The notes: generated from the sequence alone by a model not told the origin. Counted from the stretch's first letter, positions 1 through 46,825 are shown. The stretch: DNA of 64,000 nucleotides from Pseudomonadota bacterium (GCA_034439715.1 JAWXAY010000080.1:39862-103861), one strand, 5' to 3'. Numbers and translations: made by a program.

Positions 1-951
1 ACTTCCTAAAATAACCATCAGCTTTTCACTTTGTATGGGCCGATAGCCCATCTTTGCTCTTGCTTCGCGCCAGACTCGGTCAGTAATTATTTTTTTATAT
101 AGAGAGATCGCAAGCGGTCGGGGGCAGGTCCCAATAATCTCCGCCGGATTCCAGTCTGGCATCTGTCCTAAAATAGTTGAGTCGCCCAAAACCGTTACCT
201 TTTTTTGTGAGATTTGAGCGAAGGATTTTTTGGCCTCTAAAAGAGAAGCGTGAACGGTTTTATTTAAGGTCGCCCAGGTTTTTTCAGTTGATAAAATTCG
301 TACTTGGACCAAATAAATTTGACCGTTTTTTGTTTGAGCAAACTCGAGATCGAGTGGCACGTGGCCACAAATGCTTTCAATCTCTCGAGTAAATTCAATC
401 CATTTTTTGACTCGTTCAGAGTCTATCATCGCCAAGTCAGTGTCTCTAAAAATTAACACCATTTTACTAACGCCGACTCCTCCTGTTACTGAGTCGGTTT
501 TTCCGGACTCGTCATCATAATTAATGACGTAGTAGGGGGCCCCGTTGGTCATGAGGTGGGTAGTAATAACTCCACTAACGGCAACTTGGTTTAGCATGGG
601 CTGAATCAGGACCTGATCTTTAGTATTTCGCGATGTGTAGGAGCCAATCACCTGTGCAATTGCCGAGTGAATTTGATCTGCGTTTTGAGTTTGAATATCC
701 AGACAGGACAAAAAAGCCCCAGCCATTGACTGTGATTTTGTATCTTCGCAAGCGGCACTACTACGAACGATCAATGACGGGTATCTCGAGAATTTTTCTT
801 GTATCTCTTGAACCAATCCCTCAGAGGAACTCAACCAGTTTTCGACACTAAAGTAATATAGATCGAGTATAGTAGAGCGTTTAACTTGGGGCTTTAACTG
901 CTCCAGAGTCTCTGACTTTGTGCCAAAAATAAATTTGGTATGTAATTCCAT
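1..951 (-). CDS. PEP-utilising/PPDK-like protein, putative L-glutamine kinase of phosphoramidate biosynthesis (Cj1418-like); 3' end runs off the window
   Basis: Absent from the ORF track because it has no stop in the window. Hand translation from ATG at 951: MELHTKFIFGTKSETLEQLK...LIVRSSAACED...SMAGAFLS...VLIQPML..SGV...APYYVINYDDESGKTDSVTGG...LDLEFA...GQMPDWNPAEIIG.CPRPLAISLYKKIITD. These are the ATP-grasp motifs of the PPDK family plus the MPDWNPAEIIG block I recall from Cj1418-type proteins. Confidence 0.85.
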   Translation of the reverse strand, partial: MELHTKFIFGTKSETLEQLKPQVKRSTILDLYYFSVENWLSSSEGLVQEIQEKFSRYPSLIVRSSAACEDTKSQSMAGAFLSCLDIQTQNADQIHSAIAQVIGSYTSRNTKDQVLIQPMLNQVAVSGVITTHLMTNGAPYYVINYDDESGKTDSVTGGVGVSKMVLIFRDTDLAMIDSERVKKWIEFTREIESICGHVPLDLEFAQTKNGQIYLVQVRILSTEKTWATLNKTVHASLLEAKKSFAQISQKKVTVLGDSTILGQMPDWNPAEIIGTCPRPLAISLYKKIITDRVWREARAKMGYRPIQSEKLMVILGS

Positions 952-967
952 AATATGCTAGAAATTA

Positions 968-2311
968 GTGACATTGCGCCTAAAACTCAACCTTTCTCAT
1001 CTATATTTCTATCTTAGAAGCCCAGTTAGGACGCTTTACTGGCGTGCCATAAAGTTAAAGGATCAAATTTATTGGCCCAGCGTAGAGTTAAAGAATCGAA
1101 TTTATTGGTCGCTCTACGATAGTAAACACTTGAGTGTGCTCATCGATGCCGTTAGGCGGCCTAAGATTTACCTACAAGTTGTAATAAGTTCGCTCAGGGT
1201 CATTTTTAGAGGAAAAAAACTCGTCCTTATTTATTTACTATATCGAGGACATCAGAGCTGGGTTGACGGAGTCGTCCAAAAATTGGCTAAAGATCCCAAA
1301 TTTGGAGTAATTATTTTTACTCACGATGCTGCTTTGCCCAAAAGTCAGGGTAAGAATATTAAAGTCTTTTTTTTGGATTCCTCAAAACCTTTTCGGGGAC
1401 TAAATCTCCTGCCAGCCGTATTTGCCGATTTGTATCTAACGCCAACCTCCGTCACAGGAAACAACGCGGCATTTATCTACCCCAAAGTTCATTTTTTTCA
1501 CTCTCTGGTGAGCGTTCACTTTGTTTATGAGAATGACACCTTCAGTGACTATCAGTTTATCTATTGTGCGGGCCAGCATCACATCGAAGAAATGAAAGAG
1601 TGGTTTGCAGACCGAAATCTGAAGAATAAATGTCTGATCCCCGGGGGGTACCCTAAGCTAGATTCGCTTTTGGCTAAAAGATCCCAGCTGGTGAAAACTC
1701 GGACAGACGGCATTAAGAATACTGTAATTTTTGCACCGACTCTTTTGAGTAAGAAGAGCGAAAAATTTTCGGCTCTTTTGGTCGACGGAAAGCAAATCAT
1801 TAAATTACTTTTGGAAAGTGGATATCAAGTTACGTTTAGACCGCATCCCTTAAATTTGGAGAAAACAGATCCCTATGCTTCGCTGGTAGAGGGATTAATC
1901 GAAGAATTCCAATCGCATGCTCGATTTACTTTGGACCGGTCTGTAGATTATTTTGAATCCTATGAAAATTCCGACTTGATGATTACTGATATTTCGGGAA
2001 CGGGTTTTACTTACGGTTTAGGCTTTGAAAGGCCTGTAGTGTTTGTTTCTCCCAACGAAGGTGAGCACTCACCTCAAAAAGGAGTTGAGTTTCTTTGCCG
2101 GAAAGATATCGGAAAAGTTGTTGAGGATGTTCAGTGTTTACCTAAGGTCTGCCGCGAGATTCTTGATAATTTTGAGAGTTATCAAAAAAACCTGCTGGAG
2201 TTTCGTAGCAAATTTATTTTTAATGTTGGCGAAAGTGATGATTATTTTATGAAGAATATATCGTACATAATCACCGGAAAGAAACATCCTGACTGGACAT
2301 ATATTGACTAG
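968..2311 (+). CDS. CDP-glycerol glycerophosphotransferase (TagF/TagB-like, GT-B fold) family protein
   Basis: FFHS, GGYPKLD, FAPT, FRPHP and SDLMITDISG motifs. The start codon is uncertain. Confidence 0.7.
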   Translation: MTLRLKLNLSHLYFYLRSPVRTLYWRAIKLKDQIYWPSVELKNRIYWSLYDSKHLSVLIDAVRRPKIYLQVVISSLRVIFRGKKLVLIYLLYRGHQSWVDGVVQKLAKDPKFGVIIFTHDAALPKSQGKNIKVFFLDSSKPFRGLNLLPAVFADLYLTPTSVTGNNAAFIYPKVHFFHSLVSVHFVYENDTFSDYQFIYCAGQHHIEEMKEWFADRNLKNKCLIPGGYPKLDSLLAKRSQLVKTRTDGIKNTVIFAPTLLSKKSEKFSALLVDGKQIIKLLLESGYQVTFRPHPLNLEKTDPYASLVEGLIEEFQSHARFTLDRSVDYFESYENSDLMITDISGTGFTYGLGFERPVVFVSPNEGEHSPQKGVEFLCRKDIGKVVEDVQCLPKVCREILDNFESYQKNLLEFRSKFIFNVGESDDYFMKNISYIITGKKHPDWTYID

Positions 2312-2313
2312 TC

Positions 2314-3084
2314 TTATTTTAGCTGAACCGTCCAAGAACGAGTTCGATAGGGCACTTTTACAAAATCGAAATCTTTAATTTCGTTTTCGATCATGTTCAA
2401 TATTTGTTGAAATTTCTCGGGACCAGCCTGTGCTTGGATATCGTTTACTGACCTCCATGCTCCTAGATAGCGAGGTTTTTCCATCTGAACCTCATGTTGG
2501 GATTCAATGAATAAAACATCTTTGAAGTCGCCAGTCGAAGTTAAATTGCTCTCGATGTCCTTTGTGTAGGATTTTGCGCCAGAAGAAACACGCTTTAGCT
2601 CTGGCAACATCTCATGAATTTTATCTTCAATTTTTAAATGCAGGGTACTTTTGTCTAAGTCTCTTGGGTTCCAGAGAGCAGTGAAAAATCCCTTTGGTTT
2701 TAAAATTCGTTTGAATTCTTTTAAAGCCAGAGCCGCATTTGTCCAGTGAAATGAAGAAGCCATCAAAACCCAATCTACAGAATGGTCTAATAGTCCGGTT
2801 TTTTCTCCGGTACCCTTTGACCAAATAAATTGAGAGTTTCCAGAAAACAAATATTGTCCCTCGGCTCTCATGGCATCATTGGGTTCAACCGCAAAACCTG
2901 TCAGCCCAATCTCAGACAGGTTTTCTGTTAGTTTACCGGTTCCTGCACCGACATCCGCCACAACGACACTTGTTTTATTAACGGACTGTTTTACGTATGC
3001 TTGTAAAGCCTTCAGCGTCGACAGAGAATAGCCAGTACGATGAATATACTCTTTTGCCAGCTGACTAAAATCGCCTAATTCCAT
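2314..3084 (-). CDS. Class I SAM-dependent methyltransferase, Cj1419/Cj1420-like
   Basis: DVGAGTGK motif I, MASSFHW, ALWNPRD, YLGAWRSVNDIQAQAG. The N-terminal GDFS.LAKEY..R..YS resembles the C. jejuni MeOPN-locus methyltransferases as I recall them. Confidence 0.8.
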   Translation of the reverse strand: MELGDFSQLAKEYIHRTGYSLSTLKALQAYVKQSVNKTSVVVADVGAGTGKLTENLSEIGLTGFAVEPNDAMRAEGQYLFSGNSQFIWSKGTGEKTGLLDHSVDWVLMASSFHWTNAALALKEFKRILKPKGFFTALWNPRDLDKSTLHLKIEDKIHEMLPELKRVSSGAKSYTKDIESNLTSTGDFKDVLFIESQHEVQMEKPRYLGAWRSVNDIQAQAGPEKFQQILNMIENEIKDFDFVKVPYRTRSWTVQLK

Positions 3085-3100
3085 TTGCCCTCAATACTGA

Positions 3101-3883
3101 TCATGGATGTCCCAGGTGAGAAATGAGAGGCCCCGTATTATCGAAAGATGTTAAATACTTGTTTGTTCCCAACAAGGGTGGACCATCATATACCTTTTGA
3201 TGGTTATCTATTACGATACAGCGAGAACAATAGCTATTAACGTCATCAGCGCTATGAGTGACTAAAATAATAGTAGTGCCGAGTGCATGGAGAGTCTTTA
3301 TTTTTTCAATACATTTTCTTTGAAAACCGACATCACCTACGGCCAATACTTCGTCAAAAAGCAAAATTTCAGCTTCCATGTGTACGGCAATAGAAAACCC
3401 GAGTCTTACCAACATGCCGCTTGAATATTTTTTGACTGGGAGATAAATCATTTCACCCAATTCAGAAAACTCGATTATATCATTTAAATACTGGAGTGTT
3501 TTTTTTCGACCAAAACCTAAGATGGCGGCGTTAAGAAAAATATTATTATAACCGCTCAATTCAAATTGAAATCCAGCACCCAACTCAAGCAAAGGAGCAA
3601 GAGCGCTTGAGACCTTAATATTGCCTGAGTCCGGATGGTAAATTCCGGAAATAAGTTTTAAGATTGTACTTTTTCCGGCGCCATTCCTACCCATGATTCC
3701 AACAAATTCACCTTTTGCGATATTAAAGCTTACATCTTTTAAAACAGTAAATTCATGGGTCGTACCAAAATCAAATTTGAATTTTAGTGCATTGACAAGA
3801 ATGGACTTTAAATCGGTCGGCCTGTCTTCGGAATAGCGGAATTTTTTTGACACGTTTTCTACTGAGATTACGGATTCATTCAT
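3101..3883 (-). CDS. wzt: Polysaccharide ABC transporter ATP-binding subunit
   Basis: Walker A GRNGAGKST, YSSGMLVRLGF signature, LLFDEVLAVGD Walker B; adjacent to an ABC-2 permease. Confidence 0.93.
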   Translation of the reverse strand: MNESVISVENVSKKFRYSEDRPTDLKSILVNALKFKFDFGTTHEFTVLKDVSFNIAKGEFVGIMGRNGAGKSTILKLISGIYHPDSGNIKVSSALAPLLELGAGFQFELSGYNNIFLNAAILGFGRKKTLQYLNDIIEFSELGEMIYLPVKKYSSGMLVRLGFSIAVHMEAEILLFDEVLAVGDVGFQRKCIEKIKTLHALGTTIILVTHSADDVNSYCSRCIVIDNHQKVYDGPPLLGTNKYLTSFDNTGPLISHLGHP

Positions 3884-4683
3884 ATGATTTCAGCCAACTT
3901 TCTACCCTGCCGATCAAAAAAATAAAGCCCCATAAAAAAAATGGCAAGAGTCCAAAGGCTGGCAGTAACGAAATATTCAGTTGGCGCGATCCTATTATCC
4001 ATTACCAAATCGCGAAAAATAATAAACGGCGTAGCTATAGGATTAGCAAAAACTATCCAACTTAATTTGGTGGGTATCAAGTTTTGGCTGTAGACAATGG
4101 GTGTTGCGTAAAACCAAACTTGAAGTATCAATCCGAGCAAGTGCTTTAGATCTTGAAAATGTATGAATGCCACAGAAAGAAATAAAGAAATGCCATATCC
4201 TATTAGAAAGAAACAAATTAAAGGAAATATAATTAAAATCAGACTCCAATCAAAAGTTCCGCCGGTTAAAAGATTCGAAAGCAAGATAACAGGTAGAGCT
4301 ATGAGAAAAGTAATGAAATTTGTAACGGTCACGACCAGAGGAAAAACATTTAAGGGTAGGGGAACCTTACTAATCAGACCTGAGTTAGCCCGAATTGATT
4401 CTAAACCGTCCATAATCGTTTGCGAGAAAAATGTCCAAGGCAGCACGCCGGCAATAATGAAGGCCGAGTAACGAGGAACAGAGATTTTCACGATAACCTG
4501 AAAGACAAGATAGTACATTGCCGCCGTTGCCATCGGTATTAGGAGGGACCAGGCAATTCCCAAGAAAGATTGACGATATTTCAGTTTAAGATTTCGCGAG
4601 ATTAAATTATAAACCAGAAACTTATGCTTTGCACAAAAGGCATCGGTTTTGATCCAGGGGATTAGCATTTGCGCTTGAGTCAT
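3880..4683 (-). CDS. wzm: Polysaccharide ABC transporter permease
   Basis: LKLKYRQSFLGIAWSLL.P and FYATPIVY..NP motifs; multiple hydrophobic segments; 4-bp overlap with wzt. Confidence 0.93.
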   Translation of the reverse strand: MTQAQMLIPWIKTDAFCAKHKFLVYNLISRNLKLKYRQSFLGIAWSLLIPMATAAMYYLVFQVIVKISVPRYSAFIIAGVLPWTFFSQTIMDGLESIRANSGLISKVPLPLNVFPLVVTVTNFITFLIALPVILLSNLLTGGTFDWSLILIIFPLICFFLIGYGISLFLSVAFIHFQDLKHLLGLILQVWFYATPIVYSQNLIPTKLSWIVFANPIATPFIIFRDLVMDNRIAPTEYFVTASLWTLAIFFMGLYFFDRQGRKLAEII

Positions 4684-4745: not shown

Positions 4746-6062
4746 ATGGCCACATTTTCAATCATTTTAGCGACTTTCAATTCTGAAAAATTTATCCATG
4801 AATGCATTCAAAGCATATTGAGTCAGGTTTTTACCGATTTTGAACTTTTGATTGTGGATGACGGTTCTACCGATGGCACTCCGAGGTACCTGGAAGAATT
4901 GGCCAAGAGCGATCAAAGAATTCAAGTATATCGCAATGTTAAGAACAGGGGAATGGGCTACAATTATCGCTTTCTTTTAGAAAAATGTAGCGGGGAATTG
5001 ATCGCCCAAATCGGACACGACGATTGTTGGCATCAAAACTATCTTTTGGAAGCCGCAAAATGCTTAAAAAATAGGCCAAACTTCGTAGCGTCAGTAGCAA
5101 AAACACGGCTTATAAACGATCAGGGAACGGTTATTGAAAATAAACTTTTTTTGCACGATCAGATTGAGAGTAATAATCAGCAAAAACTGGTTTTACAGCT
5201 CTATCAGGGCAATTTTATTTGCGCCAGCGCTGTTGTGTTTCAGAAAAAATTTCTCGTAGATAGCTTACCACTAGTTGATTTGGATCAATTTCAGGATTGG
5301 ATGACATGGCTTGTGTTGGCTTTAAAAGGGCCGTTCTATTTTGGCAGTGAGCAGCTGGTTTCGTATCGGGTGCACCAGAACAATCTAAGCCTCTCGGGCA
5401 GGAGTAGGGCTTTGTCGCGACTGGAGTGTAACTGGCTTCGGCCTTTGTTTTTGAAATCAAAAGAATTGTCTCAGTTTGTACTAGCTCAACCCGATCCCGA
5501 TGCTTTTTTATTTAGTCTTTTTGCACAAGTCGACAAAAGTATAAATGTCGACAGAGTCGAAGAGGTGACGGCGGTTTTTCAGTCCATTAAGGAGCAAGAG
5601 GTCTCACTTGGCGAATTACCATCTTACAGGGCCACTATGGGCATGTTTTATTGGTACTTTGGAGCCTTGAAAAAATCATCGCTTTATTTCACTGATGGCC
5701 AAACTTCAAACTCTTGGGTCAATTTGCTATCATCATTAAATTGGAAAACCCTGTTAGTGTTCAAAAAAGAAGCAACAGCAGAAATACCACGCTTTTTTAT
5801 TAAATTTAAAAATATTGGACCCTGTTTTTGGGTGCAAATTCGCTTGAGAAATGCACCCCTACCGATTATACCCTTCACTTTGGTTCGGAACACAAGACAC
5901 TCGTATTTGGAATCTTTAGAACGGTTTATTGCAGGGCAGCAATATTTTAATTTTGCTCGAATCGTAAAATTTTTTAAAGGGAAATTTAAGAAATGTTTGA
6001 TACCGAACGGGTTGAGAAGCTACCCAAAGAAGACAACCGACTTGGAACTTGGGAGCTGCTAA
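4746..6062 (+). CDS. GT2 family glycosyltransferase
   Basis: FSIILATFN, IVDDGSTDGT, HDDCW (DxD equivalent), QDW..W, YRVH; long C-terminal extension. Confidence 0.85.
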   Translation: MATFSIILATFNSEKFIHECIQSILSQVFTDFELLIVDDGSTDGTPRYLEELAKSDQRIQVYRNVKNRGMGYNYRFLLEKCSGELIAQIGHDDCWHQNYLLEAAKCLKNRPNFVASVAKTRLINDQGTVIENKLFLHDQIESNNQQKLVLQLYQGNFICASAVVFQKKFLVDSLPLVDLDQFQDWMTWLVLALKGPFYFGSEQLVSYRVHQNNLSLSGRSRALSRLECNWLRPLFLKSKELSQFVLAQPDPDAFLFSLFAQVDKSINVDRVEEVTAVFQSIKEQEVSLGELPSYRATMGMFYWYFGALKKSSLYFTDGQTSNSWVNLLSSLNWKTLLVFKKEATAEIPRFFIKFKNIGPCFWVQIRLRNAPLPIIPFTLVRNTRHSYLESLERFIAGQQYFNFARIVKFFKGKFKKCLIPNGLRSYPKKTTDLELGSC

Positions 6063-6445
6063 AGTTTGTTAGCAAAGGCGATGACCGGGGCGAGCTTGTT
6101 GCCATTCAGAATAGTTCTGAGATCCCGTTTGATATCAAGAGAGTCTATTATTTAGTTAACACTAAGGCAGGCGTAATTCGTGGATTGCACGCGCATAGCA
6201 ACTTAGACCAGGTCCTAATTGCTATTTCGGGTTCTTGTCGGGTCAGCGTCGATAATTCACAAAAAAAAGAAGAATTTTTGTTGGATGACTGCCGAGTTGG
6301 TTTGAGAATTCGAAATTACGTGTGGCGAGAAATGTTTGAATTTTCCCAAAACTGTGTGCTTTTAGTATTAGCAAATAGATTTTATGATCCCAACGATTAT
6401 ATTCGAGATTATGGAATCTTTTTAAACAAAGCTCGAGGACTTTAG
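5993..6445 (+). CDS. fdtA: dTDP-4-keto-6-deoxyhexose 3,4-ketoisomerase (FdtA/QdtA cupin family)
   Basis: DDRGEL, IPFDIKRVYY, RGLHAH, DYIRDY motifs. The C4 stereochemistry (FdtA vs QdtA) cannot be resolved from sequence here. Confidence 0.85.
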   Translation: MFDTERVEKLPKEDNRLGTWELLKFVSKGDDRGELVAIQNSSEIPFDIKRVYYLVNTKAGVIRGLHAHSNLDQVLIAISGSCRVSVDNSQKKEEFLLDDCRVGLRIRNYVWREMFEFSQNCVLLVLANRFYDPNDYIRDYGIFLNKARGL

Positions 6446-6453
6446 TTTGATGT

Positions 6454-7554
6454 ATGGAAATTAACTTCCCGTTTGTGGACTTAGCTCTAGTGCACGGTGA
6501 TTTGCGGCCGCAAATCCTCAAGACGTTGAGTGACGTCTATGAGCGACGCGTTTACATTTGTGGATCTGAACTTGAGCAATTTGAAATCGAGTGGGCAAAG
6601 TATTGCGGAGTCAAATATGCCATTGGGGTTTCTAATGGTTTAGACGCGCTCGCATTAATATTAAAAGCACTTGAGATTGGACCTGGCGATGAAGTAATTC
6701 TGCCCGCCAATACTTTTATCGCCACGGCCCTCGCAGTTTCACAGGTAGGCGCCACGCCAGTACTTGTGGATGTGGACGAGGCGAGCTTTAACTTGTCCTT
6801 ATCCGAAGTAGAAAAAAGTATTACTAAAAAAACTAAGGCTATCATTCCCGTGCATCTCTATGGCCGATTAGCAGATATGAAAGGTCTTGTTGAAATTTCG
6901 AACCTAAATAAAATTTGGTTAATCGAAGACGCGGCTCAAGCGCATGGTGCCGAAGTCGACAAAATTAGGGCGGGAGCCTTTGGCATTGCAGGGGCGTTTT
7001 CGTTTTATCCCGGTAAAAATTTGGGGGCTTTAGGTGACGGAGGTGGTGTCGTTACCAACGATGAAGCTCTAGCAAAAAAGATTAGAAAACTGAGAAATTA
7101 TGGCTCTGAGACTAAATATTACCATGACCTAAAAGGGAGTAATGCGCGACTTGATGAGATCCAAGCCGCAGTGCTGAGAGTAAAATTAAATTATTTAGAA
7201 AGCTGGAATAGCTTACGCCGTGAGATGGCTAGTGTTTATCAACAGGCGCTGGCAGATACGCCGTTGGTATTGCCACTAGCTAGTAAAGCCAATGAAAACG
7301 TTTGGCACCTCTATGTTGTTAAAACAAAAAATCGCAAAGAAGTTCAAGAAACTCTCTTAGAGAGTGGCATTCAATCGTCTATCCATTACCCAGTGCCTAT
7401 TCATCTTCAGAGGGCATTTTCAGACTTAAATAAAGGACTAGGCAGTTTTCCGGTGTCGGAGAGGTTGGCAAATGAAATTCTCAGTTTGCCATTTTGGATA
7501 GGTCTGAATGTAAGTAATTGTGCAAAGGCTATTAAAAAATCTTTGAAATATTAG
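6454..7554 (+). CDS. fdtB: DegT/DnrJ family sugar aminotransferase (FdtB/QdtB-like)
   Basis: IEDAAQAHGA, FSFYPGKNLGALGDGG (PLP Lys), NARLDEIQAA; follows fdtA. Confidence 0.85.
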   Translation: MEINFPFVDLALVHGDLRPQILKTLSDVYERRVYICGSELEQFEIEWAKYCGVKYAIGVSNGLDALALILKALEIGPGDEVILPANTFIATALAVSQVGATPVLVDVDEASFNLSLSEVEKSITKKTKAIIPVHLYGRLADMKGLVEISNLNKIWLIEDAAQAHGAEVDKIRAGAFGIAGAFSFYPGKNLGALGDGGGVVTNDEALAKKIRKLRNYGSETKYYHDLKGSNARLDEIQAAVLRVKLNYLESWNSLRREMASVYQQALADTPLVLPLASKANENVWHLYVVKTKNRKEVQETLLESGIQSSIHYPVPIHLQRAFSDLNKGLGSFPVSERLANEILSLPFWIGLNVSNCAKAIKKSLKY

Positions 7555-7565
7555 GGAGTGTTCGC

Positions 7566-8087
7566 TTGGCAGATATTGAAAATACGAGTTCGGTTCCCAC
7601 ATTTTTCTCGCATCCTCAAGCCTTGATTGAAGAGGGCGCACGCATTGGTGCTGGAACCAGAGTGTGGGCCTTTTCTCACATACTTTCGAAAGTTACGATC
7701 GGTAGAGATTGTAATATCTGTGATCACACCTTTGTTGAAAGCGGCGTAGTGATAGGTGATAGAGTGACAGTCAAGTGTGGCGTATACATTTGGCAGGGAG
7801 TTACTCTAGAAAACGATGTTTTCATTGGCCCAAACGCCACCTTTACTAACGATGAGTTTCCTAGAAGTAAAAAATATCCCACTGAGTTTTCAAAAACCCT
7901 GGTTAAAAATGGCGCGAGTATCGGCGCCAATGCTACATTACTGCCGGGAATAACTATCGGCGAGTTTGCCATGATCGGAGCGGGGTCTGTGGTAACAAAG
8001 GATGTTCCTGCCTACGCAGTGGTTTGTGGTAATCCGGCTAAATTGATTCGCTACTCTCAATGCCCTTCGAATTCGCAGAATGCATGA
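7566..8087 (+). CDS. Hexapeptide-repeat N-acyltransferase (WxcM/QdtC-like)
   Basis: IGAGTRVWAFSHI, CNICDH, FIGPNATFTND..PRSK, left-handed beta-helix repeats, GNPAK. Confidence 0.88.
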   Translation: MADIENTSSVPTFFSHPQALIEEGARIGAGTRVWAFSHILSKVTIGRDCNICDHTFVESGVVIGDRVTVKCGVYIWQGVTLENDVFIGPNATFTNDEFPRSKKYPTEFSKTLVKNGASIGANATLLPGITIGEFAMIGAGSVVTKDVPAYAVVCGNPAKLIRYSQCPSNSQNA

Positions 8088-8611
8088 TATTTATATCCGG
8101 CCTTTTTGAGTTTTTCTCCGCCTTTTAGCTCGGGGAGGTCAACCAGGAAACAAATCTCAACAATCTCTGCTCCCAACTTTTCAATTAAAGAAATTGCACC
8201 CAATGCTGTTCCGCCAGTGGCCAAAAGATCGTCAATCAGTAAAACTTTTTGACCTTTTTGAATAGCGTCTTTTTGGATCTCGATAGTATCTGAGCCGTAT
8301 TCCAAGTCGTAGTTATGAGAAACAATGTCCCCAGGGAGCTTGCCTTTTTTTCTGACGGGCACGAATCCCTTGTTCATAGCATAGGCGAAGGCAGAGCCTA
8401 TTATAAACCCTCGGGCTTCAATTCCGGCTACGATGTCAAATTCGTAGGAGCTGTAGCGGTCCTTCATTTTATCAATAGAATACCTTAATCCCTTGGCATT
8501 TCCTATGAGCGTAGAAATATCCCGAAAAAGAATTCCTTTTTTGGGATGGTCAGGAATGGTGCGAATCATTGACTTAATTATTGAATCAGTAGGCATTTTA
8601 ATGTCTCCCAT
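8057..8611 (-). CDS. apt: Adenine phosphoribosyltransferase
   Basis: IPDHPKKGILFRDI, GIEARGF, RKKGKLPG, LEYG, LLIDDLLATGGT. Confidence 0.96.
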   Translation of the reverse strand: MGDIKMPTDSIIKSMIRTIPDHPKKGILFRDISTLIGNAKGLRYSIDKMKDRYSSYEFDIVAGIEARGFIIGSAFAYAMNKGFVPVRKKGKLPGDIVSHNYDLEYGSDTIEIQKDAIQKGQKVLLIDDLLATGGTALGAISLIEKLGAEIVEICFLVDLPELKGGEKLKKAGYKYHAFCEFEGH

Positions 8612-8685
8612 TTAAAACGAAGTCTGAAACTTCCACTATGTGGATTAGCGGGTCAAGCTATTCTTAACAATCTCCAAGTGATCGT

Positions 8686-8719
8686 TTGACAAACACAATT
8701 GACAAACACAATTGATAAA
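8686..8719 (+). repeat. Tandem 13-bp repeat TTGACAAACACAA x2 plus partial TTGATAAA in the apt/8734 divergent intergenic region
   Basis: Copies at 8686-8698 and 8699-8711, with a partial copy at 8712-8719; each full copy begins with TTGACA. Confidence 0.8.
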
Positions 8720-8733
8720 GTTTAGAAATTCTA

Positions 8734-10428
8734 ATGACTGCTTGGGGCATTAATAAATTGCTTTCTAAACATGGATTCATGGCGATCGCGATCTTTGCGA
8801 GTATTGTGGCTTTTTTCGCTCTGACGTGGGACCTAAGGCCCTTTCCTATAAATGCGGGAGTGGACGATGCCAAGTACGTCAAAGACGCATTAGAAATTGT
8901 AAATGGCAACTGGCTTGGCGCCTATGACAACCTGACTCTTAGCAAAAGACCTTTTTTTGGCATAGTTCAGGCGGCAAGAATTCACTTGGGCATTCCGTAT
9001 ACTACCTTTGAGTTTAGTTTTCATATTTTTTGTATGTTGGCATTTTTATGGGCCCTAATAAATCTTGGATTTAATAAATATTTTTCTTTATTTTCTTATT
9101 TTCTAATTCTTTTTATGCCACAGTTTTATGATTTTCAAACTAGCAGAGTGAGTAGGGATCTATTCAACACGGATCTTCAAATATTAATTTTTTCTTTAAG
9201 TTTTGTTTTAGCATTAGCTTTCGATAAAATTCAGAGCACACGTAACAAGGGTTTTCTTGTTTTCTCCCTCTGCCTTTTATTGTCTTTGCATTATGGCACC
9301 CGCGAGGAATCATTTCTGATTTGGCCGGGCCTCTTGATACTACTGATTGGTCATGTCCAGCGCTATGGTCCAACACCGCTGTTTAAAAAATGGCGCTATG
9401 GAATGTCACTTTGTTTATTTTTTCTGTCGGTAGTTACAACTACGAATTTCTTGTGGCAACTTAAAAACTACTCGAAATACGGTCTATTTATAACTATTGA
9501 ACACGAGGCAGGGTCATTTTCTAGAGCTATAGGTGCTTTAGCCAGTATTAAGGAAGAAACGGAACCCTCGCGGCTATTAATTGATCGAAACGAACGATTA
9601 AAGCTGGCGAAGCTAAGCCCCACTTTTGCCAAGGTGTATTCCTCTTTCGACAATCCCGACGCCGATCCGTCAGAGCGTTGCCAAAAGGAAGGCCACTGCG
9701 AAGGTTACGACTATTCTCACCAAATTTTCGCATTTCGTGATTTGTTACCCAAAATGGGAGTGGGAAATAATGCCCGAGAGGCGGAGTTATTCTATCGCAG
9801 TTTTGCGCGAGAAGTTGAAGACCTTTGCGTGAGCGGTTCGCTCAAATGTGTGCTGCCCCTTCGCGCCACCATGTTGCCCTCTTTTTCTATGGCGATGCTT
9901 CCGCGATTTAGTGACATCTTGGCCCAGCATATAAGAGAAATTTTCGAAAGTTCTACGGTCGGTTATAGCTACTGGGAAAACCCTTTTACTGCCGATGACC
10001 AAGTTAAGTTTGAAAAAATGACTCTTCAAAAAGTATTTTTACTCAAAGACAACAAGCTGATATTGGGCGAACTGCCGACACCGATAGAAAATATAAATAA
10101 CCAGATTAATAGGCGACAACGGTTAGCGGCTCTCTACAGTATTTTTACAAAAATATTTATAACGTTGGGAGTGGTGGTAATTGTTTTTGGTTTATTTTTT
10201 GGATTATTTAAAAATGTTGTGATTGGATATATTCTAGCGGCAGCGCTAGTTACCATTATTTTAAGAGTGCTGGCTATCACTTCGATTGGGGCCGTAGATA
10301 GCCAAATGGCAAATGCCTATCTTTATCCTATTTATCCTGTCGTGATTTGGTTCTTTTTAATTGCTGTATATGAAGTGGTAAGTTCACAAAAGTTCTTTAG
10401 CAAGAGCCTCAAACGCCCCAACCTTTAA
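8734..10428 (+). CDS. Multi-TM membrane protein, putative GT-C-fold glycosyltransferase
   Basis: N-terminal TM followed by DDAKY loop and WLGAYDNLTLSKRP, many TMs, GTREE motif, large Cys-containing extracytoplasmic loop. Confidence 0.55.
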   Translation: MTAWGINKLLSKHGFMAIAIFASIVAFFALTWDLRPFPINAGVDDAKYVKDALEIVNGNWLGAYDNLTLSKRPFFGIVQAARIHLGIPYTTFEFSFHIFCMLAFLWALINLGFNKYFSLFSYFLILFMPQFYDFQTSRVSRDLFNTDLQILIFSLSFVLALAFDKIQSTRNKGFLVFSLCLLLSLHYGTREESFLIWPGLLILLIGHVQRYGPTPLFKKWRYGMSLCLFFLSVVTTTNFLWQLKNYSKYGLFITIEHEAGSFSRAIGALASIKEETEPSRLLIDRNERLKLAKLSPTFAKVYSSFDNPDADPSERCQKEGHCEGYDYSHQIFAFRDLLPKMGVGNNAREAELFYRSFAREVEDLCVSGSLKCVLPLRATMLPSFSMAMLPRFSDILAQHIREIFESSTVGYSYWENPFTADDQVKFEKMTLQKVFLLKDNKLILGELPTPIENINNQINRRQRLAALYSIFTKIFITLGVVVIVFGLFFGLFKNVVIGYILAAALVTIILRVLAITSIGAVDSQMANAYLYPIYPVVIWFFLIAVYEVVSSQKFFSKSLKRPNL

Positions 10429-12350: not shown

Positions 12351-13409
12351 ATGATCATCAGCCAGACGCCTTTTCGTATTTCCTTTTTTGGCGGTGGTAC
12401 AGACTACCCCCTTTGGTTTCGCGAACATGGCGGCGCAGTTCTGGCCACTACGATCGATAAATATTGTTACCTTAGTTGTCGCTACCTCCCTCCCTTTTTC
12501 GCTCATAAACATCGAATTGTTTACTCGGTTATTGAAAATGTGAAAGAGATTGAAGATATCAAGCACCCTGCCGTGAGAGAAGTAGTCAAATATTTAGGCA
12601 TTCGCGATGGTTTAGAAGTGCATCACGATGGAGACTTGCCTGCTCGTTCAGGATTAGGCTCAAGTTCTTCGTTTACCGTCGGACTGCTCAATACGCTTTA
12701 TGCGCTTCATGGCAAACTGACTTCAAAGGCCCAATTAGCCAAGCTCGCCATACATATTGAACAAAACATTATTAAAGAAACAGTTGGTTCACAAGATCAG
12801 ATTTCGGCGGCATTTGGCGGATTTAATATCATTAAATTTAATAGAGATGATAGTTTTCAAGTCGATCCCGTAATTATTACGAAAGAGCGTAAAGAAGAGC
12901 TTGAAAGTCATTTAATGTTATTTTTTACAGGAATATCCCGTACTGCTGAGACCGTTGCGCAAAGTAAACTAAAGAATTTTGAAAAGAAGACGTCGCAACT
13001 TTCAACGATGTTTCAGATGGTGCAAGAAGCCCAAAGTATTTTAGAGAGCTCTCGTGTGTCCATTTGCGAAATCGGCGAGATGTTGCATGAGGGGTGGCTC
13101 CTGAAGCAGGAGTTGTCAGATAAAGTTTCGAATAAATTTGTAAGTGATATGTATACCTCGGCTCTCGAGTCAGGTGCCATTGGTGGCAAACTATTAGGTG
13201 CCGGCGGCGGGGGTTTTATGTTGCTTTTTGTTCCGCCCGAGCGTCAGGAACAAGTGCGACAGCGCTTGCGCGGCCTCATTGAGGTGAATTTTAAGTTTGA
13301 AAACCAGGGTAGCCGAATTACGCTTTACGATCCCAACTTAGGTAACAGTGTTGAAACGCTAAAGGCTGCGGCATCGATACAATTACCTTCACCTGATCAG
13401 CTAATGTAG
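12351..13409 (+). CDS. hddA: GHMP kinase, D-glycero-alpha-D-manno-heptose-7-phosphate kinase-like
   Basis: TPFRISFFGGGTDYP, DLPARSGLGSSS, VGSQDQ, GGKLLGAGGGGF. Confidence 0.82.
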   Translation: MIISQTPFRISFFGGGTDYPLWFREHGGAVLATTIDKYCYLSCRYLPPFFAHKHRIVYSVIENVKEIEDIKHPAVREVVKYLGIRDGLEVHHDGDLPARSGLGSSSSFTVGLLNTLYALHGKLTSKAQLAKLAIHIEQNIIKETVGSQDQISAAFGGFNIIKFNRDDSFQVDPVIITKERKEELESHLMLFFTGISRTAETVAQSKLKNFEKKTSQLSTMFQMVQEAQSILESSRVSICEIGEMLHEGWLLKQELSDKVSNKFVSDMYTSALESGAIGGKLLGAGGGGFMLLFVPPERQEQVRQRLRGLIEVNFKFENQGSRITLYDPNLGNSVETLKAAASIQLPSPDQLM

Positions 13410-28735: not shown

Positions 28736-30148
28736 TCAAAAATAAAAAAGAGGCCCAACCGATACAAAAAGGCCCATTGAAGAAAGGCCGCTATTTTTGA
28801 TTTCACTATCGAGAGGACTTCCGCCCCGTGCTTTAGCCTTCGAAGTGTTGATCATGTATTGTATTTCTGCCGACAAAATAACCCCCACCCATGATAGTGA
28901 TTTGTATTTTGGAAAAGTAAATATTCTATCGACGCCGCCAGCGGCGGTCAAAACATTGTAGGTCACCTTGTCATTGGTATAACAATTAGATCCACAGCCT
29001 GAATTTTCGACACTGAATTGCAGCGCCGCTTCGCCTAATCCTACTCGATAGAAAAAAGACCAATTGCGAGTGGGCTCAAAACGTTCGCCAAAACTTAAAG
29101 TGTTCACCTCGACCTGAGCGTAATTTTTTGGGCCGGTGGAAGAAAGCCCCTGGTCCTGATTTTGCTCAAAACTAGTTAGAGCTAAGAAATAGGTATGTTT
29201 TTTTTGATGAAAGTAAGCTTGGATACGCCCACCTTTTAACCCCTCACCGGCGTTATCTTTGATTGCAGCACTGTCATGTTCGATGCCGGCACCACCCAAT
29301 ACCAGACCGACATTTAAGCGATAAGTAGCAGGTTTTATTGGTTCCTCTTGAATCCCACTTTCTTTGGGTTGAGGGAGTTCCTGATTTATTTTCCACAGGT
29401 CATGTGGATGAGGCTGATTTTTGACAATCACCCAGTAGTTTTCTTTGCCTTTATAAATATTCGTCGCTTCGAGCCGTCCGCTTTGGGCCTGGCCTTCGCC
29501 AGATCTCATTAAAAGTTTTTTATTGTGATAAAGTAGTTCGCCGCCAAACAGAGTTAAAGGTTTGCCATCGATAACTATTTTTTCTTCATGGCCCAAAGGA
29601 CAAAGCCAACGAAGCGAGGTGGTTTTTATCTGCCAGATACTTACATCATCAACCTTGGGGGCCTCAACCACTCCAGGGCCAAAAGCGACCGCCAGACAGC
29701 GTTTTTGGGTAATGAATTTTAGGTATGCACCACTAGCTAAAACAAATTCATCTCCCCTGCGGACTAGAGATTTAAATTGAGGGGCAGGAGTTTTTTTTGG
29801 GTCAACCCAATCGACTTCTCCTGAAACATATTGAACTACCCCCTCAAAATCGCTGGCGGGACTACTCATGTCAATTTTTTCAGTGGCCCCTTCGAGTTGG
29901 GGTACGCCGTCTTTAAAGGTCACGAGCGAGGGATCAAGTGGTATGAAACCTTCAGGCATTTTGTGTTTTTTGGGCAGTTTTTTGGATACTTTCTTAGATT
30001 TTTTAGGGGTAACGGCTGCCGGGATATCAGGCTCCGACGCTGCCTCAGTCTCTGCGTTTTGGGCCGCGAGGTTGAAACTTAAAAAAAGCATAAGGAAGGT
30101 TAGTGGCAGGCTTGCCCAAAGGGATTTTTTCTTTACTAAGATAGCCAT
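28736..30148 (-). CDS. Secreted hypothetical protein, FecR-like middle region and probable C-terminal beta-barrel
   Basis: Signal peptide, Lys/Pro-rich linker, beta-rich segment, amphipathic strands ending ...VGPLFYF. Confidence 0.5.
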   Translation of the reverse strand: MAILVKKKSLWASLPLTFLMLFLSFNLAAQNAETEAASEPDIPAAVTPKKSKKVSKKLPKKHKMPEGFIPLDPSLVTFKDGVPQLEGATEKIDMSSPASDFEGVVQYVSGEVDWVDPKKTPAPQFKSLVRRGDEFVLASGAYLKFITQKRCLAVAFGPGVVEAPKVDDVSIWQIKTTSLRWLCPLGHEEKIVIDGKPLTLFGGELLYHNKKLLMRSGEGQAQSGRLEATNIYKGKENYWVIVKNQPHPHDLWKINQELPQPKESGIQEEPIKPATYRLNVGLVLGGAGIEHDSAAIKDNAGEGLKGGRIQAYFHQKKHTYFLALTSFEQNQDQGLSSTGPKNYAQVEVNTLSFGERFEPTRNWSFFYRVGLGEAALQFSVENSGCGSNCYTNDKVTYNVLTAAGGVDRIFTFPKYKSLSWVGVILSAEIQYMINTSKAKARGGSPLDSEIKNSGLSSMGLFVSVGPLFYF

Positions 30149-31858: not shown

Positions 31859-33118
31859 ATGAAAATTTGGGTACTAGAAATTGGCGAGCCACTTCCACTT
31901 GAAAAAGATGTGCGGTTACATCGATATGGCCAGTTTACAAAATACCTAGCAGCTAAGGGGCATGATGTAACATGGTGGACTTCTAGTTTTAGCCATACCC
32001 CTAAAACACATGTTGTTGAGAGTGACCAGGATATTGGTCTCGATGGTGTAAACATAAAGTTCTTATTTGGCTCTGGATACAAAAAAAATGTATCGATGGC
32101 GCGAATCCGTCACAACAGACGTTTTGCCAAAAGTTTTTACGAAAAAACCAGCTCATGTCCCAAGCCTGATTTAATAATTGCACCTATTCCCATCATTGAG
32201 GCTGCCGAGAGGGCGGTTCGGTATGGCAAAGAAAAAGGTGTGCCAGTATTAGTTGATATCAGAGATTACTGGCCTGATGAATTGGTAGATTTGGCACCTA
32301 AAGTTTTACGGCCACTCGCGCGAGTGATGTTGTCGCGGGCCTTTTCTTCGATGAAGTATGTTTGTCTGAATGCTAATGGCATTATGGGCGTGTCTCAATC
32401 CTATGTCGACTATGGACTTAAGTTTGCTCAGCGCTCGCAAAACCTGAATGATTTGCTCTTTCCACTGGGATATTCACAGAAAAAATATACTGATCCTGAA
32501 ATGCTACAGGGGCGGATTTGGCGAAAAGAATTAAATCTCAATATGCATGCCTTTAAAATTTGTTTTTTCGGCACTATCGGCCGTTTTTTTGATCTCGAGA
32601 CAGTGATCAAGGCGGCTCGTATTTTAGAAAAAGAGTTTTCGGTGCTTTTTATTTTAGGGGGCGATGGCAGCAATTTAGCAAAATATAAAAAAATGGCTGC
32701 AGGGTCGAAGTCAGTTTTATTTACGGGTTGGCTCAACGGTCCGCAAATTTCGGCGATCATGGAGATCTCTCATGCCGGGCTGGCGCCCTATAAGCACGAC
32801 GCTAAAATGTCGCTACCCAATAAACCTTTTGAGTACATGGCTGGTGGCCTGCCGATTATTTCAAGTATTCAGGGCGAACTGAAAGCATGGCTTACAAAAT
32901 TTAATTGTGGAATTACCTATCGGGCTAACTCTGTTGAAGAACTCTGCCAAGCGATCAGGATGCTCAAACGTCAGGAGGCCGTTAGAAACATGATGAGCAA
33001 AAATGCGCGCAATTTGCTGGAAGAGCATTTCTCAACGGAAAAAGTCTATTTACGCGCGCTGGAGCATATTAAGAAAGTGGTGGCTACTTTTTCGGCCAGG
33101 CCGCAGCCGCCGAACTAA
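31859..33118 (+). CDS. GT4 family glycosyltransferase (WbuB-like)
   Basis: DIRDYWPD, FFGTIG, PNKPFEYMAGGLPII. Confidence 0.88.
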   Translation: MKIWVLEIGEPLPLEKDVRLHRYGQFTKYLAAKGHDVTWWTSSFSHTPKTHVVESDQDIGLDGVNIKFLFGSGYKKNVSMARIRHNRRFAKSFYEKTSSCPKPDLIIAPIPIIEAAERAVRYGKEKGVPVLVDIRDYWPDELVDLAPKVLRPLARVMLSRAFSSMKYVCLNANGIMGVSQSYVDYGLKFAQRSQNLNDLLFPLGYSQKKYTDPEMLQGRIWRKELNLNMHAFKICFFGTIGRFFDLETVIKAARILEKEFSVLFILGGDGSNLAKYKKMAAGSKSVLFTGWLNGPQISAIMEISHAGLAPYKHDAKMSLPNKPFEYMAGGLPIISSIQGELKAWLTKFNCGITYRANSVEELCQAIRMLKRQEAVRNMMSKNARNLLEEHFSTEKVYLRALEHIKKVVATFSARPQPPN

Positions 33119-34262
33119 CATCGGGAGTTAGGCTACGTGGGGAATTGCCGTGGCAGTTCAAGCAAGCGTAGGGCAATTTTTGATCATGATACGTTGTTTG
33201 CCTAACAAAAATTCCAGTGTCGCCATTTAATTTATAAAATACTGGGACCCACACTCGCTTATCAGCTTGATAGGCAAAGGCCTTTATTGCAGTCACATTA
33301 TCCTTAGCGTCGATGAGTTCGAGAATACGAATTTCATTCCCTCGATTTTGCGATACCGATTTATAGGTTTCTTTGCTGTATTTAGCGGTCAACCTATCTT
33401 GGGATTGTTTTAGGTTAACCGATTTTGTGCGGCTCCAATGCTTAGTATCCTTTATATATAGTGCCTGGTTTATTATTTCATCTAGGTTTATGGGATCGGA
33501 GGCGGCTTGTTCGGGTTCAATTTGAGGTAGACTTGCCAACATGCGATCGGGAGTTGGAACTTTCTTCTTTTTGTTTGCCTTAGGCTGAGATACGGGCGCA
33601 CCGCTAACATAACCTTGGTCCATGACGAGACCTTCGATGTCTCTAAGTTTGGCGATAATGGTATCTAGACGATTATTGACATTATTAAAGGGCTCGCGAA
33701 CGTTGTCTTGAATAACTTTTCGAACGCGATCTTCAATTTCAACCGCTTGAGAGTTGTTACCTTTGCCTGTGGGAATGGTGTTTGAGTTTTTGTCGTAATT
33801 CACACCAATGCGATCAAGCATTTGATTGATTTGACCACGTTGGCTTTCATCAAAGGGTGATTTGTTCCACGACACCGGAGTATTTCTTAGCTCTATCGCC
33901 GAGTTTCTGTAATCATTTGCACTTTGTTGTTCACGTGGAGTGAGGGGTCCACCATTTGCTCCGCGATCATAGTAGTAGCTGCCTAAATCACGAGTGTCGT
34001 AAGTGGGAGTACGTGGCGCCCCACCGCCTCCGATTCCGCCTCCTCCGCGACCCGGTCTGGGTGTCGGCGTGCTTGTAGTTGGTGGCTCAGGTTTAGGTGG
34101 ATTTGTGGTTCCACCACCAGTCGCGGGTTCGCGACCCATAAAGTCGCGCGCGCGCCTTCTTATCTCTGACTGCTCGGGACCGCAACTACTGTCTGACCGA
34201 GACGGGCAAGGCAAGAGGATTCCAAGGAAGCACAGCATGCAAAAAATAACTACATTACGCAA
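33084..34262 (-). CDS. Secreted Pro/Gly-rich protein with a single C-terminal CxxCH haem-binding motif
   Basis: Signal peptide; low-complexity PPKPEPPTTSTPTPRPGRGGGGIGGGG; ACLNCHG near the C-terminus. Confidence 0.55.
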   Translation of the reverse strand: MRNVVIFCMLCFLGILLPCPSRSDSSCGPEQSEIRRRARDFMGREPATGGGTTNPPKPEPPTTSTPTPRPGRGGGGIGGGGAPRTPTYDTRDLGSYYYDRGANGGPLTPREQQSANDYRNSAIELRNTPVSWNKSPFDESQRGQINQMLDRIGVNYDKNSNTIPTGKGNNSQAVEIEDRVRKVIQDNVREPFNNVNNRLDTIIAKLRDIEGLVMDQGYVSGAPVSQPKANKKKKVPTPDRMLASLPQIEPEQAASDPINLDEIINQALYIKDTKHWSRTKSVNLKQSQDRLTAKYSKETYKSVSQNRGNEIRILELIDAKDNVTAIKAFAYQADKRVWVPVFYKLNGDTGIFVRQTTYHDQKLPYACLNCHGNSPRSLTPDVSSAAAAWPKK

Positions 34263-35953: not shown

Positions 35954-35988
35954 CCTATCGGAATTCTTAAATTAAACGTGATGGTTAA

Positions 35989-36004
35989 GGGTATACTAAT
36001 TGCA
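35989..36004 (+). promoter_or_regulatory. Candidate sigma54 -24/-12 promoter
   Basis: GGGTATACTAATTGCA has GG-N10-GC spacing with TTGCA at -12, about 55 bp upstream of the 36059 ATG, which has a GAGGAG RBS. Confidence 0.5.
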
Positions 36005-36058
36005 AAACTAATCCTTAGTTAAGGTGAATTAAATTAAGACAACCTGAGGAGATTCATA

Positions 36059-36616: not shown

Positions 36617-36629
36617 TTTCAAAATCTAA

Positions 36630-36650
36630 AGCGTTTCAAAATGAGACGCT
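36630..36650. other. Inverted repeat AGCGTTTCA-aaa-TGAGACGCT between convergent genes (terminator or protein-binding site)
   Basis: 9-bp arms with one T/G pair. Confidence 0.45.
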
Positions 36651-36726
36651 GTTGTAAGGCCACTCTCAAACAAGTCAACCTATAGTGTTCCTAACCCCCA
36701 TTTCGAGTAGACACTCAAAGCACCAG

Positions 36727-37260: not shown

Positions 37261-37349
37261 GTGAGGTCCTCCTGACCAATTAAATTTATACCTAATTTAA
37301 CAGCTGAGATTTCTTCTGTCACTCTCTCGCATACTGTGGCAAATTAATA

Positions 37350-46764: not shown

Positions 46765-46789
46765 ACATGAATTAGAAATATGCGAACAC

Positions 46790-46819
46790 ACCTTGCCAGC
46801 TGATTAAAACTGGTAAGGT
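46790..46819. terminator. Hairpin between convergent genes, possible bidirectional terminator
   Basis: ACCTTGCCAG-N10-CTGGTAAGGT. Confidence 0.5.
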
Positions 46820-46825
46820 ATAAAA

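What the first reader, a model, noticed from the sequence alone, without database searches (positions are those of the whole stretch)
1..4683. Campylobacter-like O-methyl phosphoramidate (MeOPN) module beside a Wzm/Wzt exporter in a probable Bdellovibrionota genome
Seen: an ORF missing from the supplied track (951->1, minus strand) with PPDK ATP-grasp motifs and MPDWNPAEIIG, plus a SAM methyltransferase directly downstream of wzm-wzt on the same strand. Known: in C. jejuni, Cj1418 (glutamine kinase), Cj1416, Cj1417 and Cj1415 build an activated phosphoramidate, and Cj1419/Cj1420 methylate it on the capsule. This rare P-N modification affects phage binding and serum resistance. Inference: both proteins resemble Cj1418 and Cj1419/20 as I remember them, so this organism may put (methyl)phosphoramidate on an ABC-exported glycan.
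Basis: partly seen in the sequence, partly recalled or inferred. Interest (0 to 1): 0.85.

Follow-up and report, generated by a model that had tools for sequence, protein, structure and literature searches.

The report
Phosphoramidate sugar-coat cassette with TagF-like transferase
A microbial-mat bacterium, likely of the Bdellovibrionota, carries relatives of all four genes that Campylobacter uses to make a rare phosphorus-nitrogen sugar decoration, and beside them a teichoic-acid-type enzyme that likely attaches the group to a surface sugar, a methyltransferase that may methylate it and a phosphatase that likely clears the by-product.

Summary
Observation confirmed. The ORF at 951->1 is the first 317 residues of a 799-aa glutamine-kinase-family protein, not PpsA or Rph. 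Left of the window, on the same strand, follow a glutamine amidohydrolase, a cytidylyltransferase, a DHH phosphoesterase and an APS-kinase-like protein: a complete Cj1418-17-16-15-like donor cassette. No C. jejuni sequence could be fetched, so orthology rests on family models and gene context. TagF-like proteins in cassettes with the 3'-kinase lack the likely ribose-binding Asp/Glu (29 of 29); those in 3'-kinase-free cassettes keep it (3 of 6). That pattern comes from only 1-2 lineages. Two claims were overstated: Cj1419/Cj1420 have no shown function, and the Wzm/Wzt link is not conserved (0 of 80 loci). The cassette is widespread (about 1,900 GTDB stretches), and this scan noted it before on other DNA, including with TagF-like genes. 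New variant of a known kind.

The parts
1..951 (-). 5' part (317 of 799 aa) of a Cj1418-like L-glutamine kinase. It continues left of the window and is followed on the same strand by a 221-aa glutamine amidohydrolase (C80:37755-38420), a 250-aa cytidylyltransferase (37006-37758), a 315-aa DHH phosphoesterase (36075-37022) and a 171-aa APS-kinase-like 3'-kinase (35557-36072). Window coordinate = C80 coordinate minus 39861.
   Evidence: ORFs overlap by 8, 4 and 17 nt and are then 2 nt apart. PRK05849 883.5 bits; NF045546 best hit but 115.6 < 250; PRK05541 167.2 > 127, apsK 99.7 < 138.7; NTP_transf_3; DHH model matches PAP phosphatase 8A8K.
968..2311 (+). 447-aa TagF-like (CDP-glycerol glycerophosphotransferase family) GT-B enzyme; candidate phosphoramidate transferase. 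Keeps His178 and Arg291-Pro-His293; has Thr348 where canonical members have Asp/Glu.
   Evidence: PF04464, Atlas, model pLDDT 91.8, Foldseek top hits TagF, TarL, Cps3D; only copy found in the genome; relatives lie in phosphoramidate cassettes.
2314..3084 (-). 256-aa class I SAM methyltransferase of a family tied to 3'-kinase-bearing phosphoramidate cassettes; candidate O-methyltransferase.
   Evidence: Methyltransf_11/25; relatives in 33 of 84 kinase loci with the 3'-kinase and 0 of 26 without; 4 of the 6 other phylum genomes with it are among the 7 of 300 with the kinase.
3101..3883 (-). Wzt ABC ATPase, 260 aa; too short for a C-terminal carbohydrate-binding module and no such Pfam hit.
   Evidence: TagH and Wzt/RfbE models best, all below cut-off; ABC_tran and a weak AAA_21 hit only.
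3880..4683 (-). Wzm ABC-2 permease, 267 aa.
   Evidence: Wzm/RfbD 74.7 bits versus KpsM 43.3, both below cut-off.
4746..8087 (+). GT2 glycosyltransferase, then fdtA-like isomerase, DegT aminotransferase and hexapeptide acyltransferase: likely dTDP-3-acylamino-3,6-dideoxyhexose pathway, the candidate acceptor sugar.
   Evidence: Pfam FdtA, DegT, Hexapep; fdtA in 11 of 19 kinase loci with a TagF-like gene versus 1 of 61 without.

Best explanation
The five coupled genes left of position 951 likely make 3'-phospho-CDP-phosphoramidate from glutamine, ATP and CTP, and the adjacent TagF-like enzyme likely transfers the phosphoramidate onto a surface sugar. Steps, all inferred from family and context: kinase (via His755) phosphorylates the glutamine amide; the cytidylyltransferase adds CMP; the amidohydrolase releases glutamate; the APS-kinase-like enzyme phosphorylates the ribose 3'-OH (about 0.88 for this donor route). 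The TagF-like enzyme would use His178 as base and release cytidine 3',5'-bisphosphate (about 0.65). The DHH protein would hydrolyse that by-product to CMP, standing in for CysQ (about 0.55). The methyltransferase may add the O-methyl group (about 0.45). The acceptor may be a 3-acylamino-3,6-dideoxyhexose (about 0.4), on a glycan that may or may not leave through Wzm/Wzt (about 0.4).
For: Family scores and coupled gene order. Among 80 kinase loci the amidohydrolase is in 72, the cytidylyltransferase in 71 and the 3'-kinase in 65. No ATP sulfurylase (Sat; CysD) was found in the 95.7% complete genome, so a true APS kinase would lack substrate. No TagD over cut-off and no other polyol-phosphate cytidylyltransferase was recognised. 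Reciprocal search with the TagF-like subfamily alone: 7 of 12 loci hold the kinase, 2 more run into 3'-kinase plus methyltransferase and end, 2 end at or just after the gene. Neutral residue at position 348 in 29 of 29 TagF-like proteins beside kinase plus 3'-kinase; Asp/Glu in 16 of 20 in loci with neither. DHH: metal ligands D8, D10, D56, D80-H81-H82, D130 invariant in 66 sequences; top fold hit a DHH-type PAP phosphatase (PMC10322725 passages). CysQ in 9 of 84 kinase loci with the 3'-kinase and 0 of 26 without; no CysQ over cut-off here.
Against: No C. jejuni protein could be compared directly; the amidohydrolase is below the NF045546 cut-off, and PRK05849 is named only 'hypothetical protein'. 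Only 19 of 80 kinase loci have a detectable TagF-like gene. L111 (21 kb) has a close Thr-type relative and no kinase. The residue pattern needs only 2 changes on a quick tree and one origin is not excluded; several loci are near-copies; 3 Thr-type proteins beside a kinase have no intact 3'-kinase in their fetched DNA (L106-L108). The mapping of Thr348 to the ribose-binding residue is by motif spacing only (searches gave no alignment to TagF). VIA-align ties TagF (Z 21.8) with UDP-GlcNAc 2-epimerases (Z 23.0, 22.2). The DHH gene was in 0 of 80 kinase loci, and its family lies near an APS-kinase-like gene in only 2 of 20 loci. In Campylobacter, 4 of 13 strains with the genes gave no MeOPN signal (PMC3907429 passage).
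Confidence: 0.6

Rival explanations
1. The donor cassette is real, but another enzyme (a Cj1421/Cj1422-type or a membrane transferase) attaches the group, and the TagF-like gene transfers an ordinary CDP-activated group.
For: 61 of 80 kinase loci have no detectable TagF-like gene. Unassigned membrane-type ORFs flank the locus (C80:33466-34842, window 8734-10428; no Pfam). An RfbF-like CDP-glucose enzyme appears to exist on C92 (label from motif recall). The family search tool missed P0006 itself, so negative searches are weak.
Against: No Sulfotransfer_3 match in the genome; no TagD; the gene's closest relatives sit directly upstream of 3'-kinase, methyltransferase and kinase genes in unrelated contigs.
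Confidence: 0.2
2. The TagF-like enzyme uses unphosphorylated CDP-amidate; the 3'-kinase serves another branch or is a passenger, and Thr348 is only a clade trait.
For: TagF-like genes also occur in 3'-kinase-free cassettes (L008, L074, L113); canonical TagF enzymes use plain CDP donors (PMC10901376 passages); only 2 changes on the tree.
Against: All three of those carry Glu, and no Asp/Glu-type protein was seen beside a 3'-kinase (0 of 19); L074's genome has no PRK05541 match. In many loci the 3'-kinase starts within 3-65 nt of the TagF-like gene.
Confidence: 0.12
3. The kinase is a PEP synthase or rifampicin phosphotransferase, and the neighbours are a sulfation module.
For: Shared PPDK_N and PEP-utilizer domains; weak PDB hits to PpsA and Rph-type entries (E 2.5e-5 to 7e-4).
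Against: PpsA 47.9 and Rph 29.8 bits versus 883.5 on PRK05849; separate PEP-utilizer paralogues on C64 and C28; no ATP sulfurylase or sulfotransferase found.
Confidence: 0.03
4. The phosphoramidate goes onto a protein-linked glycan, a lipid or a small molecule rather than the Wzm/Wzt-exported polysaccharide, or stays unmethylated.
For: wzm in 0 of 80 kinase loci; Wzt lacks a cap-binding module; Wzx and ligase-like genes on the same contig; unmethylated phosphoramidates occur in Xanthomonas and Shewanella LPS (cited in PMC3907429). Compatible with the donor route of the best explanation.
Against: wzm, wzt and the methyltransferase are consecutive on one strand and probably co-transcribed; the cassette lies inside a glycan island of about 50 kb.
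Confidence: 0.45

Closest known systems
C. jejuni O-methyl phosphoramidate pathway (Cj1418, Cj1416, Cj1417, Cj1415; transferases Cj1421/Cj1422; unassigned Cj1419/Cj1420)
   Same: Four donor-enzyme families in the order kinase, hydrolase, cytidylyltransferase, 3'-kinase, with an adjacent SAM methyltransferase, in a surface-glycan locus. In C. jejuni the four enzymes make CDP-phosphoramidate 3'-phosphate (PMC11800397 passage).
   Different: A DHH gene lies inside the operon; the candidate transferase is TagF-like (Cj1421/22 are recalled as sulfotransferase-like, not tested); one methyltransferase; no KpsC/KpsS found; no poly-G/C tract of 7 or more.
TagF-like polyol-phosphate transferases (TagF, TarL, Cps3D CgoT, Bcs3 CroT; PF04464)
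   Same: [quoted passage not shown]
   Different: 14-16% identity; Thr in place of the Asp/Glu five residues after the serine motif; no CDP-polyol source found; proposed donor carries NH2 and a 3'-phosphate.
DHH-type PAP phosphatase of Methanothermococcus (PDB 8A8K) and NrnA
   Same: DHH/DHHA1 fold (TM 0.72) and metal ligands at matching positions.
   Different: 14% identity; proposed substrate cytidine 3',5'-bisphosphate; the family is common in Burkholderiales in unrelated contexts (67 of 151 genomes).
TalE (phosphoramidon biosynthesis) and the Borg Cj1418/17/16-like cluster
   Same: PPDK-type N-P-bond-forming kinase (PMC6482885, part 1 and passages); the Borg preprint already reports the core genes outside Campylobacter (10.1101/2024.11.05.622173, passages).
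   Different: TalE acts on a dipeptide and is under 20% identical to Cj1418; the Borg passages name no 3'-kinase or transferase.

Membership tests
C. jejuni MeOPN pathway | PPDK-type kinase with N-terminal ATP-binding and C-terminal phosphohistidine domain, distinct from PpsA | tested here: met
   PRK05849 883.5 > 501; His755 invariant in 12 aligned sequences. That PRK05849 is the Cj1418 family is recalled.
C. jejuni MeOPN pathway | gamma-glutamyl-CDP-amidate hydrolase (Cj1417) | tested here: inconclusive
   Best model NF045546, E 3e-33, but 115.6 < 250 bits; Cys104/His196/Glu198 triad motifs present.
C. jejuni MeOPN pathway | Cytidylyltransferase (Cj1416 type) coupled to kinase and hydrolase | tested here: met
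   NTP_transf_3; 35-46% identical to plasmid proteins annotated 'phosphocholine cytidylyltransferase family' in the same context; family level only.
C. jejuni MeOPN pathway | APS-kinase-like 3'-kinase (Cj1415) not serving sulfate activation | tested here: met
   PRK05541 167.2 > 127, apsK below cut-off; no Sat or CysD found.
C. jejuni MeOPN pathway | Reciprocal best hits with Cj1415-Cj1422 | not testable with these tools
   No C. jejuni sequence was returned by any search; the name look-up could not be made.
C. jejuni MeOPN pathway | Cj1421/Cj1422-type transferase | tested here: inconclusive
   No PF13469 match and no hit with two sulfotransferase-like queries, but there is no reference sequence and sensitivity is limited.
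C. jejuni MeOPN pathway | Kps-type capsule context and phase-variable tracts | tested here: not met
   No PF05159 match; Wzm model beats KpsM; no G/C run of 7 or more in C80:35001-47500.
C. jejuni MeOPN pathway | MeOPN on the glycan by NMR | not testable with these tools
   Needs cells or reconstitution.
PpsA / rifampicin phosphotransferase | Full-length match to the family models | tested here: not met
   47.9 of 598 and 29.8 of 999 bits.
TagF-like transferases (PF04464) | GT-B fold and two catalytic histidines | tested here: met
   His178 and His293 assigned by motif; fold tied with other GT-B enzymes.
TagF-like transferases (PF04464) | Asp/Glu five residues after the serine motif (D652 in Cps3D; E497 in TarL binds a ribose hydroxyl) | tested here: not met
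   Thr348; equivalence inferred from motif spacing in PMC11666461 and PMC10901376 passages, not from a superposition.
DHH nucleoside-bisphosphate phosphatases | DHH/DHHA1 fold with intact metal site | tested here: met
DHH nucleoside-bisphosphate phosphatases | 3'-phosphatase activity on pAp or pCp | not testable with these tools
   Context is mixed.

The most novel reading that the evidence does not exclude
A branch of the TagF family has become a dedicated phosphoramidate transferase that reads a 3'-phosphorylated CDP donor, having lost the ribose-binding carboxylate to make room, and decorates 3-amino-3,6-dideoxyhexose glycans in many phyla; a DHH enzyme or CysQ recycles the cytidine bisphosphate. 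This would be a second, undescribed architecture for (methyl)phosphoramidate coats, with one residue predicting which donor a cassette uses.
Probability: 0.4. Interest if true: 0.7.

Novelty: new variant of a known kind. Interest (0 to 1): 0.48.

Why it matters
In the papers read here, transfer and methylation are the least resolved steps of MeOPN synthesis: the transferases are known from knockouts and the methyltransferase is unassigned. This locus offers a compact candidate set for every step, with a transferase of a structurally well-studied family and a one-residue prediction (Thr348 versus Glu) that can be tested in vitro. It also shows that P-N glycan decoration genes, described mainly from Campylobacter and its relatives, occur in roughly 1% of bacterial species and move between phyla. 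The occurrence in this organism alone is ordinary.

Tried and rejected
PDB sequence searches found no solved relative of the kinase beyond PpsA-type domains, and none for the TagF-like or DHH alignments. The PF04464 genome search missed the window's own gene, so negatives from that tool are weak. My early idea that this DHH family generally sits beside APS kinases was not borne out (2 of 20 fetched of 69 places; 0 of 3 plasmid loci). Promoter and terminator scans gave chance-level counts. GC of the cassette genes (0.38-0.43) does not stand out from the genome (0.42). No RNA holder listed. ORF-based counts (61, 59, 47, 15, 17) undercounted because of an overlap filter; the tblastn counts are used. 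L010's Asp-type protein appeared but fell below the threshold and is not counted. The careful tree did not finish; only the quick tree is reported. Names for homologues could not be looked up. Literature: searches listed no paper that by title or abstract start assigns phosphoramidate transfer to a TagF-like enzyme or reports the pathway in Bdellovibrionota. PMC7901785 holds both 'MeOPN transferase' and 'TagF' and was seen only as a listing. The primary enzymology papers (Taylor and Raushel 2017-2018; McNally 2007) were seen only as references, and no supplements were opened.
Full report
Observation. The window is C80:39862-103861 of a 3.26-Mb, 95.7% complete genome. The ORF at 951->1 is the N-terminal 317 aa of a 799-aa protein with the quoted motif at residue 264 and a GGANSH motif whose His755 is invariant in 12 aligned relatives. 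wzm, wzt and the methyltransferase are as described. Contigs of three other microbial-mat runs agree with the assembly over the locus and bridge most junctions. Bdellovibrionota is supported indirectly by a TIGR02147 protein whose nearest clusters are mostly of that phylum.

The donor cassette. Left of position 1, on the same strand and overlapping by 8, 4 and 17 nt or 2 nt apart, follow a class I glutamine amidohydrolase, a cytidylyltransferase, a DHH protein and an APS-kinase-like protein. The kinase passes PRK05849 (883.5 versus 501) and fails PpsA and Rph. The hydrolase's best model is gamma-glutamyl-CDP-amidate hydrolase, below cut-off. The last gene passes PRK05541 and fails apsK. No Sat or CysD was found, so sulfate activation is unlikely. 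In C. jejuni, Cj1415-Cj1418 make CDP-phosphoramidate 3'-phosphate from glutamine, ATP and CTP (PMC11800397 passage). No C. jejuni sequence could be fetched, so orthology is inferred from models and context, and the link of PRK05849 to Cj1418 is recalled.

Breadth. A GTDB scan found 580 kinase relatives among 600 stretches in 21 of 64 parts, about 1,900 estimated in all; the best 80 were kept. They span many phyla. The hydrolase is in 72 of 80, the cytidylyltransferase in 71, the 3'-kinase in 65, the methyltransferase family in 18, wzm in 0. In the own phylum 7 of 300 other genomes have the kinase, none of them in the same order, which suggests lateral gain. Fourteen plasmid records carry it. 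A Borg preprint already reports the core genes, and this scan's earlier notes record the cassette in other bacteria and archaea.

The transferase. The 447-aa gene at 968-2311 belongs to PF04464. Its model (pLDDT 91.8) has TagF, TarL and Cps3D as top Foldseek hits, though VIA-align ties TagF with UDP-GlcNAc 2-epimerases. It keeps His178 and Arg291-Pro-His293, matching by motif the two essential histidines. It is the only copy found in the genome, and no TagD was found. From the kinase side, 19 of 80 loci have such a gene. From the transferase side, a metagenome scan with its subfamily alone gave 12 loci: 7 with the kinase, 2 ending in 3'-kinase plus methyltransferase, 2 ending at or just after the gene, and 1 (L111) without the kinase in 21 kb. 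Some of these are near-copies. fdtA accompanies 11 of 19 TagF-bearing loci versus 1 of 61 others, as it does here (5993-6445), so a 3-amino-3,6-dideoxyhexose is a candidate acceptor; kin inflate this count.

Which donor. Earlier scan notes (e1-5029582, e1-2213613) described TagF-like genes replacing the 3'-kinase; here both are present, which prompted a residue test. Cps3D conserves S647, S648 and D652, and TarL E497 binds a ribose hydroxyl (passages); by spacing the site is Thr348 here. Of 57 TagF-like proteins in 55 loci, 29 beside kinase plus 3'-kinase are all neutral; 3 beside a kinase without it are Glu; 3 more there are Thr (L106-L108, two short contigs; their kinases are 94-98% identical to that of L021, which has the 3'-kinase); of 22 in loci without the kinase, 16 are acidic and 6 neutral, 4 of those at contig ends. 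L074's genome has no PRK05541 match. A quick tree of 86 rows needs only 2 changes and does not exclude one origin, so this is a consistent lead, not independent co-evolution, and the site mapping was not confirmed by superposition.

The DHH gene and the methyltransferase. The DHH protein folds like the Methanothermococcus PAP phosphatase (8A8K, E 3e-13, TM 0.72) with matching metal ligands. CysQ occurs in 9 of 84 kinase loci with the 3'-kinase and 0 of 26 without, and this genome has no CysQ over cut-off, so a stand-in role on cytidine 3',5'-bisphosphate is plausible. Against it, the gene was in 0 of 80 kinase loci and its family mostly lies in unrelated contexts. The methyltransferase family occurs in 33 of 84 versus 0 of 26, and in the phylum 4 of 6 other carriers also have the kinase. 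Its function is open even in C. jejuni.

The glycan. Wzt has no cap-binding module, no KpsC/KpsS was found, and the contig also encodes Wzx and a ligase-like protein. Which glycan is decorated cannot be told. Effects on phage binding and serum resistance are reported for C. jejuni (PMC8437040 passage) and do not carry over by themselves.

Verdict. The feature is real and works most likely like the Campylobacter donor pathway, but it is not shown to be a full member of that system: the capsule context is not met and the transferase differs. New variant of a known kind; interest 0.48, rising to about 0.7 if the 3'-phospho-donor TagF enzyme is shown.

Noticed in passing
window 951-968 and 2311-2314: The TagF-like gene is inverted relative to its neighbours: 16 nt from the kinase start (divergent) and 2 nt from the methyltransferase stop (convergent). 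In relatives it is co-oriented upstream of the cassette. Promoters must lie inside opposite-strand genes, or transcripts overlap.
   Followed up: partly
L037-L039, L046, L050, L058, L070, L085 (about 7000-10000): A second TagF-like clade (Pseudomonas, Alteromonas, Aeromonas and others) has Tyr in place of the first catalytic His and Gly/Ala at position 348; two unassigned ORFs lie between the 3'-kinase and the kinase.
   Followed up: partly
L008, L010, L013, L014, L019: The kinase is fused N-terminally to a second nucleotidyltransferase-like domain; four of these five loci showed no 3'-kinase.
   Followed up: no
L130:8914-13993; L011:8965-15410: On rhizobial plasmids the kinase (annotated in two pieces in L130) sits with a LysE exporter and a CDP-alcohol phosphatidyltransferase, or alone near nifK with a TPP enzyme and a transaminase: possibly small-molecule phosphoramidates.
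   Followed up: no
L111:4322-11197: A Thr-type TagF-like gene with an altered first histidine motif lies beside apparent phosphonate genes (labels from sequence recall) and without the kinase.
   Followed up: no
L002/L001, C80:14268-31913, and window 12351-13409: Same glycan island: rml genes, Wzx, a two-subunit TPP enzyme with DegT aminotransferase, a B12 radical-SAM protein, epimerases, SIS isomerase and nucleotidyltransferase, and a separate GHMP kinase: likely branched, C-methylated or heptose sugars.
   Followed up: no
G000:C28:24536-26782: A 785-aa PEP-utilizer-family paralogue with weak kinase similarity, function not examined.
   Followed up: no
window 28736-30148, 33084-35953, 45817-47695, 55145-56332, 58351-60234: Several ORFs with hydrophobic N-termini and no NCBIfam match at 1e-10.
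   Followed up: no
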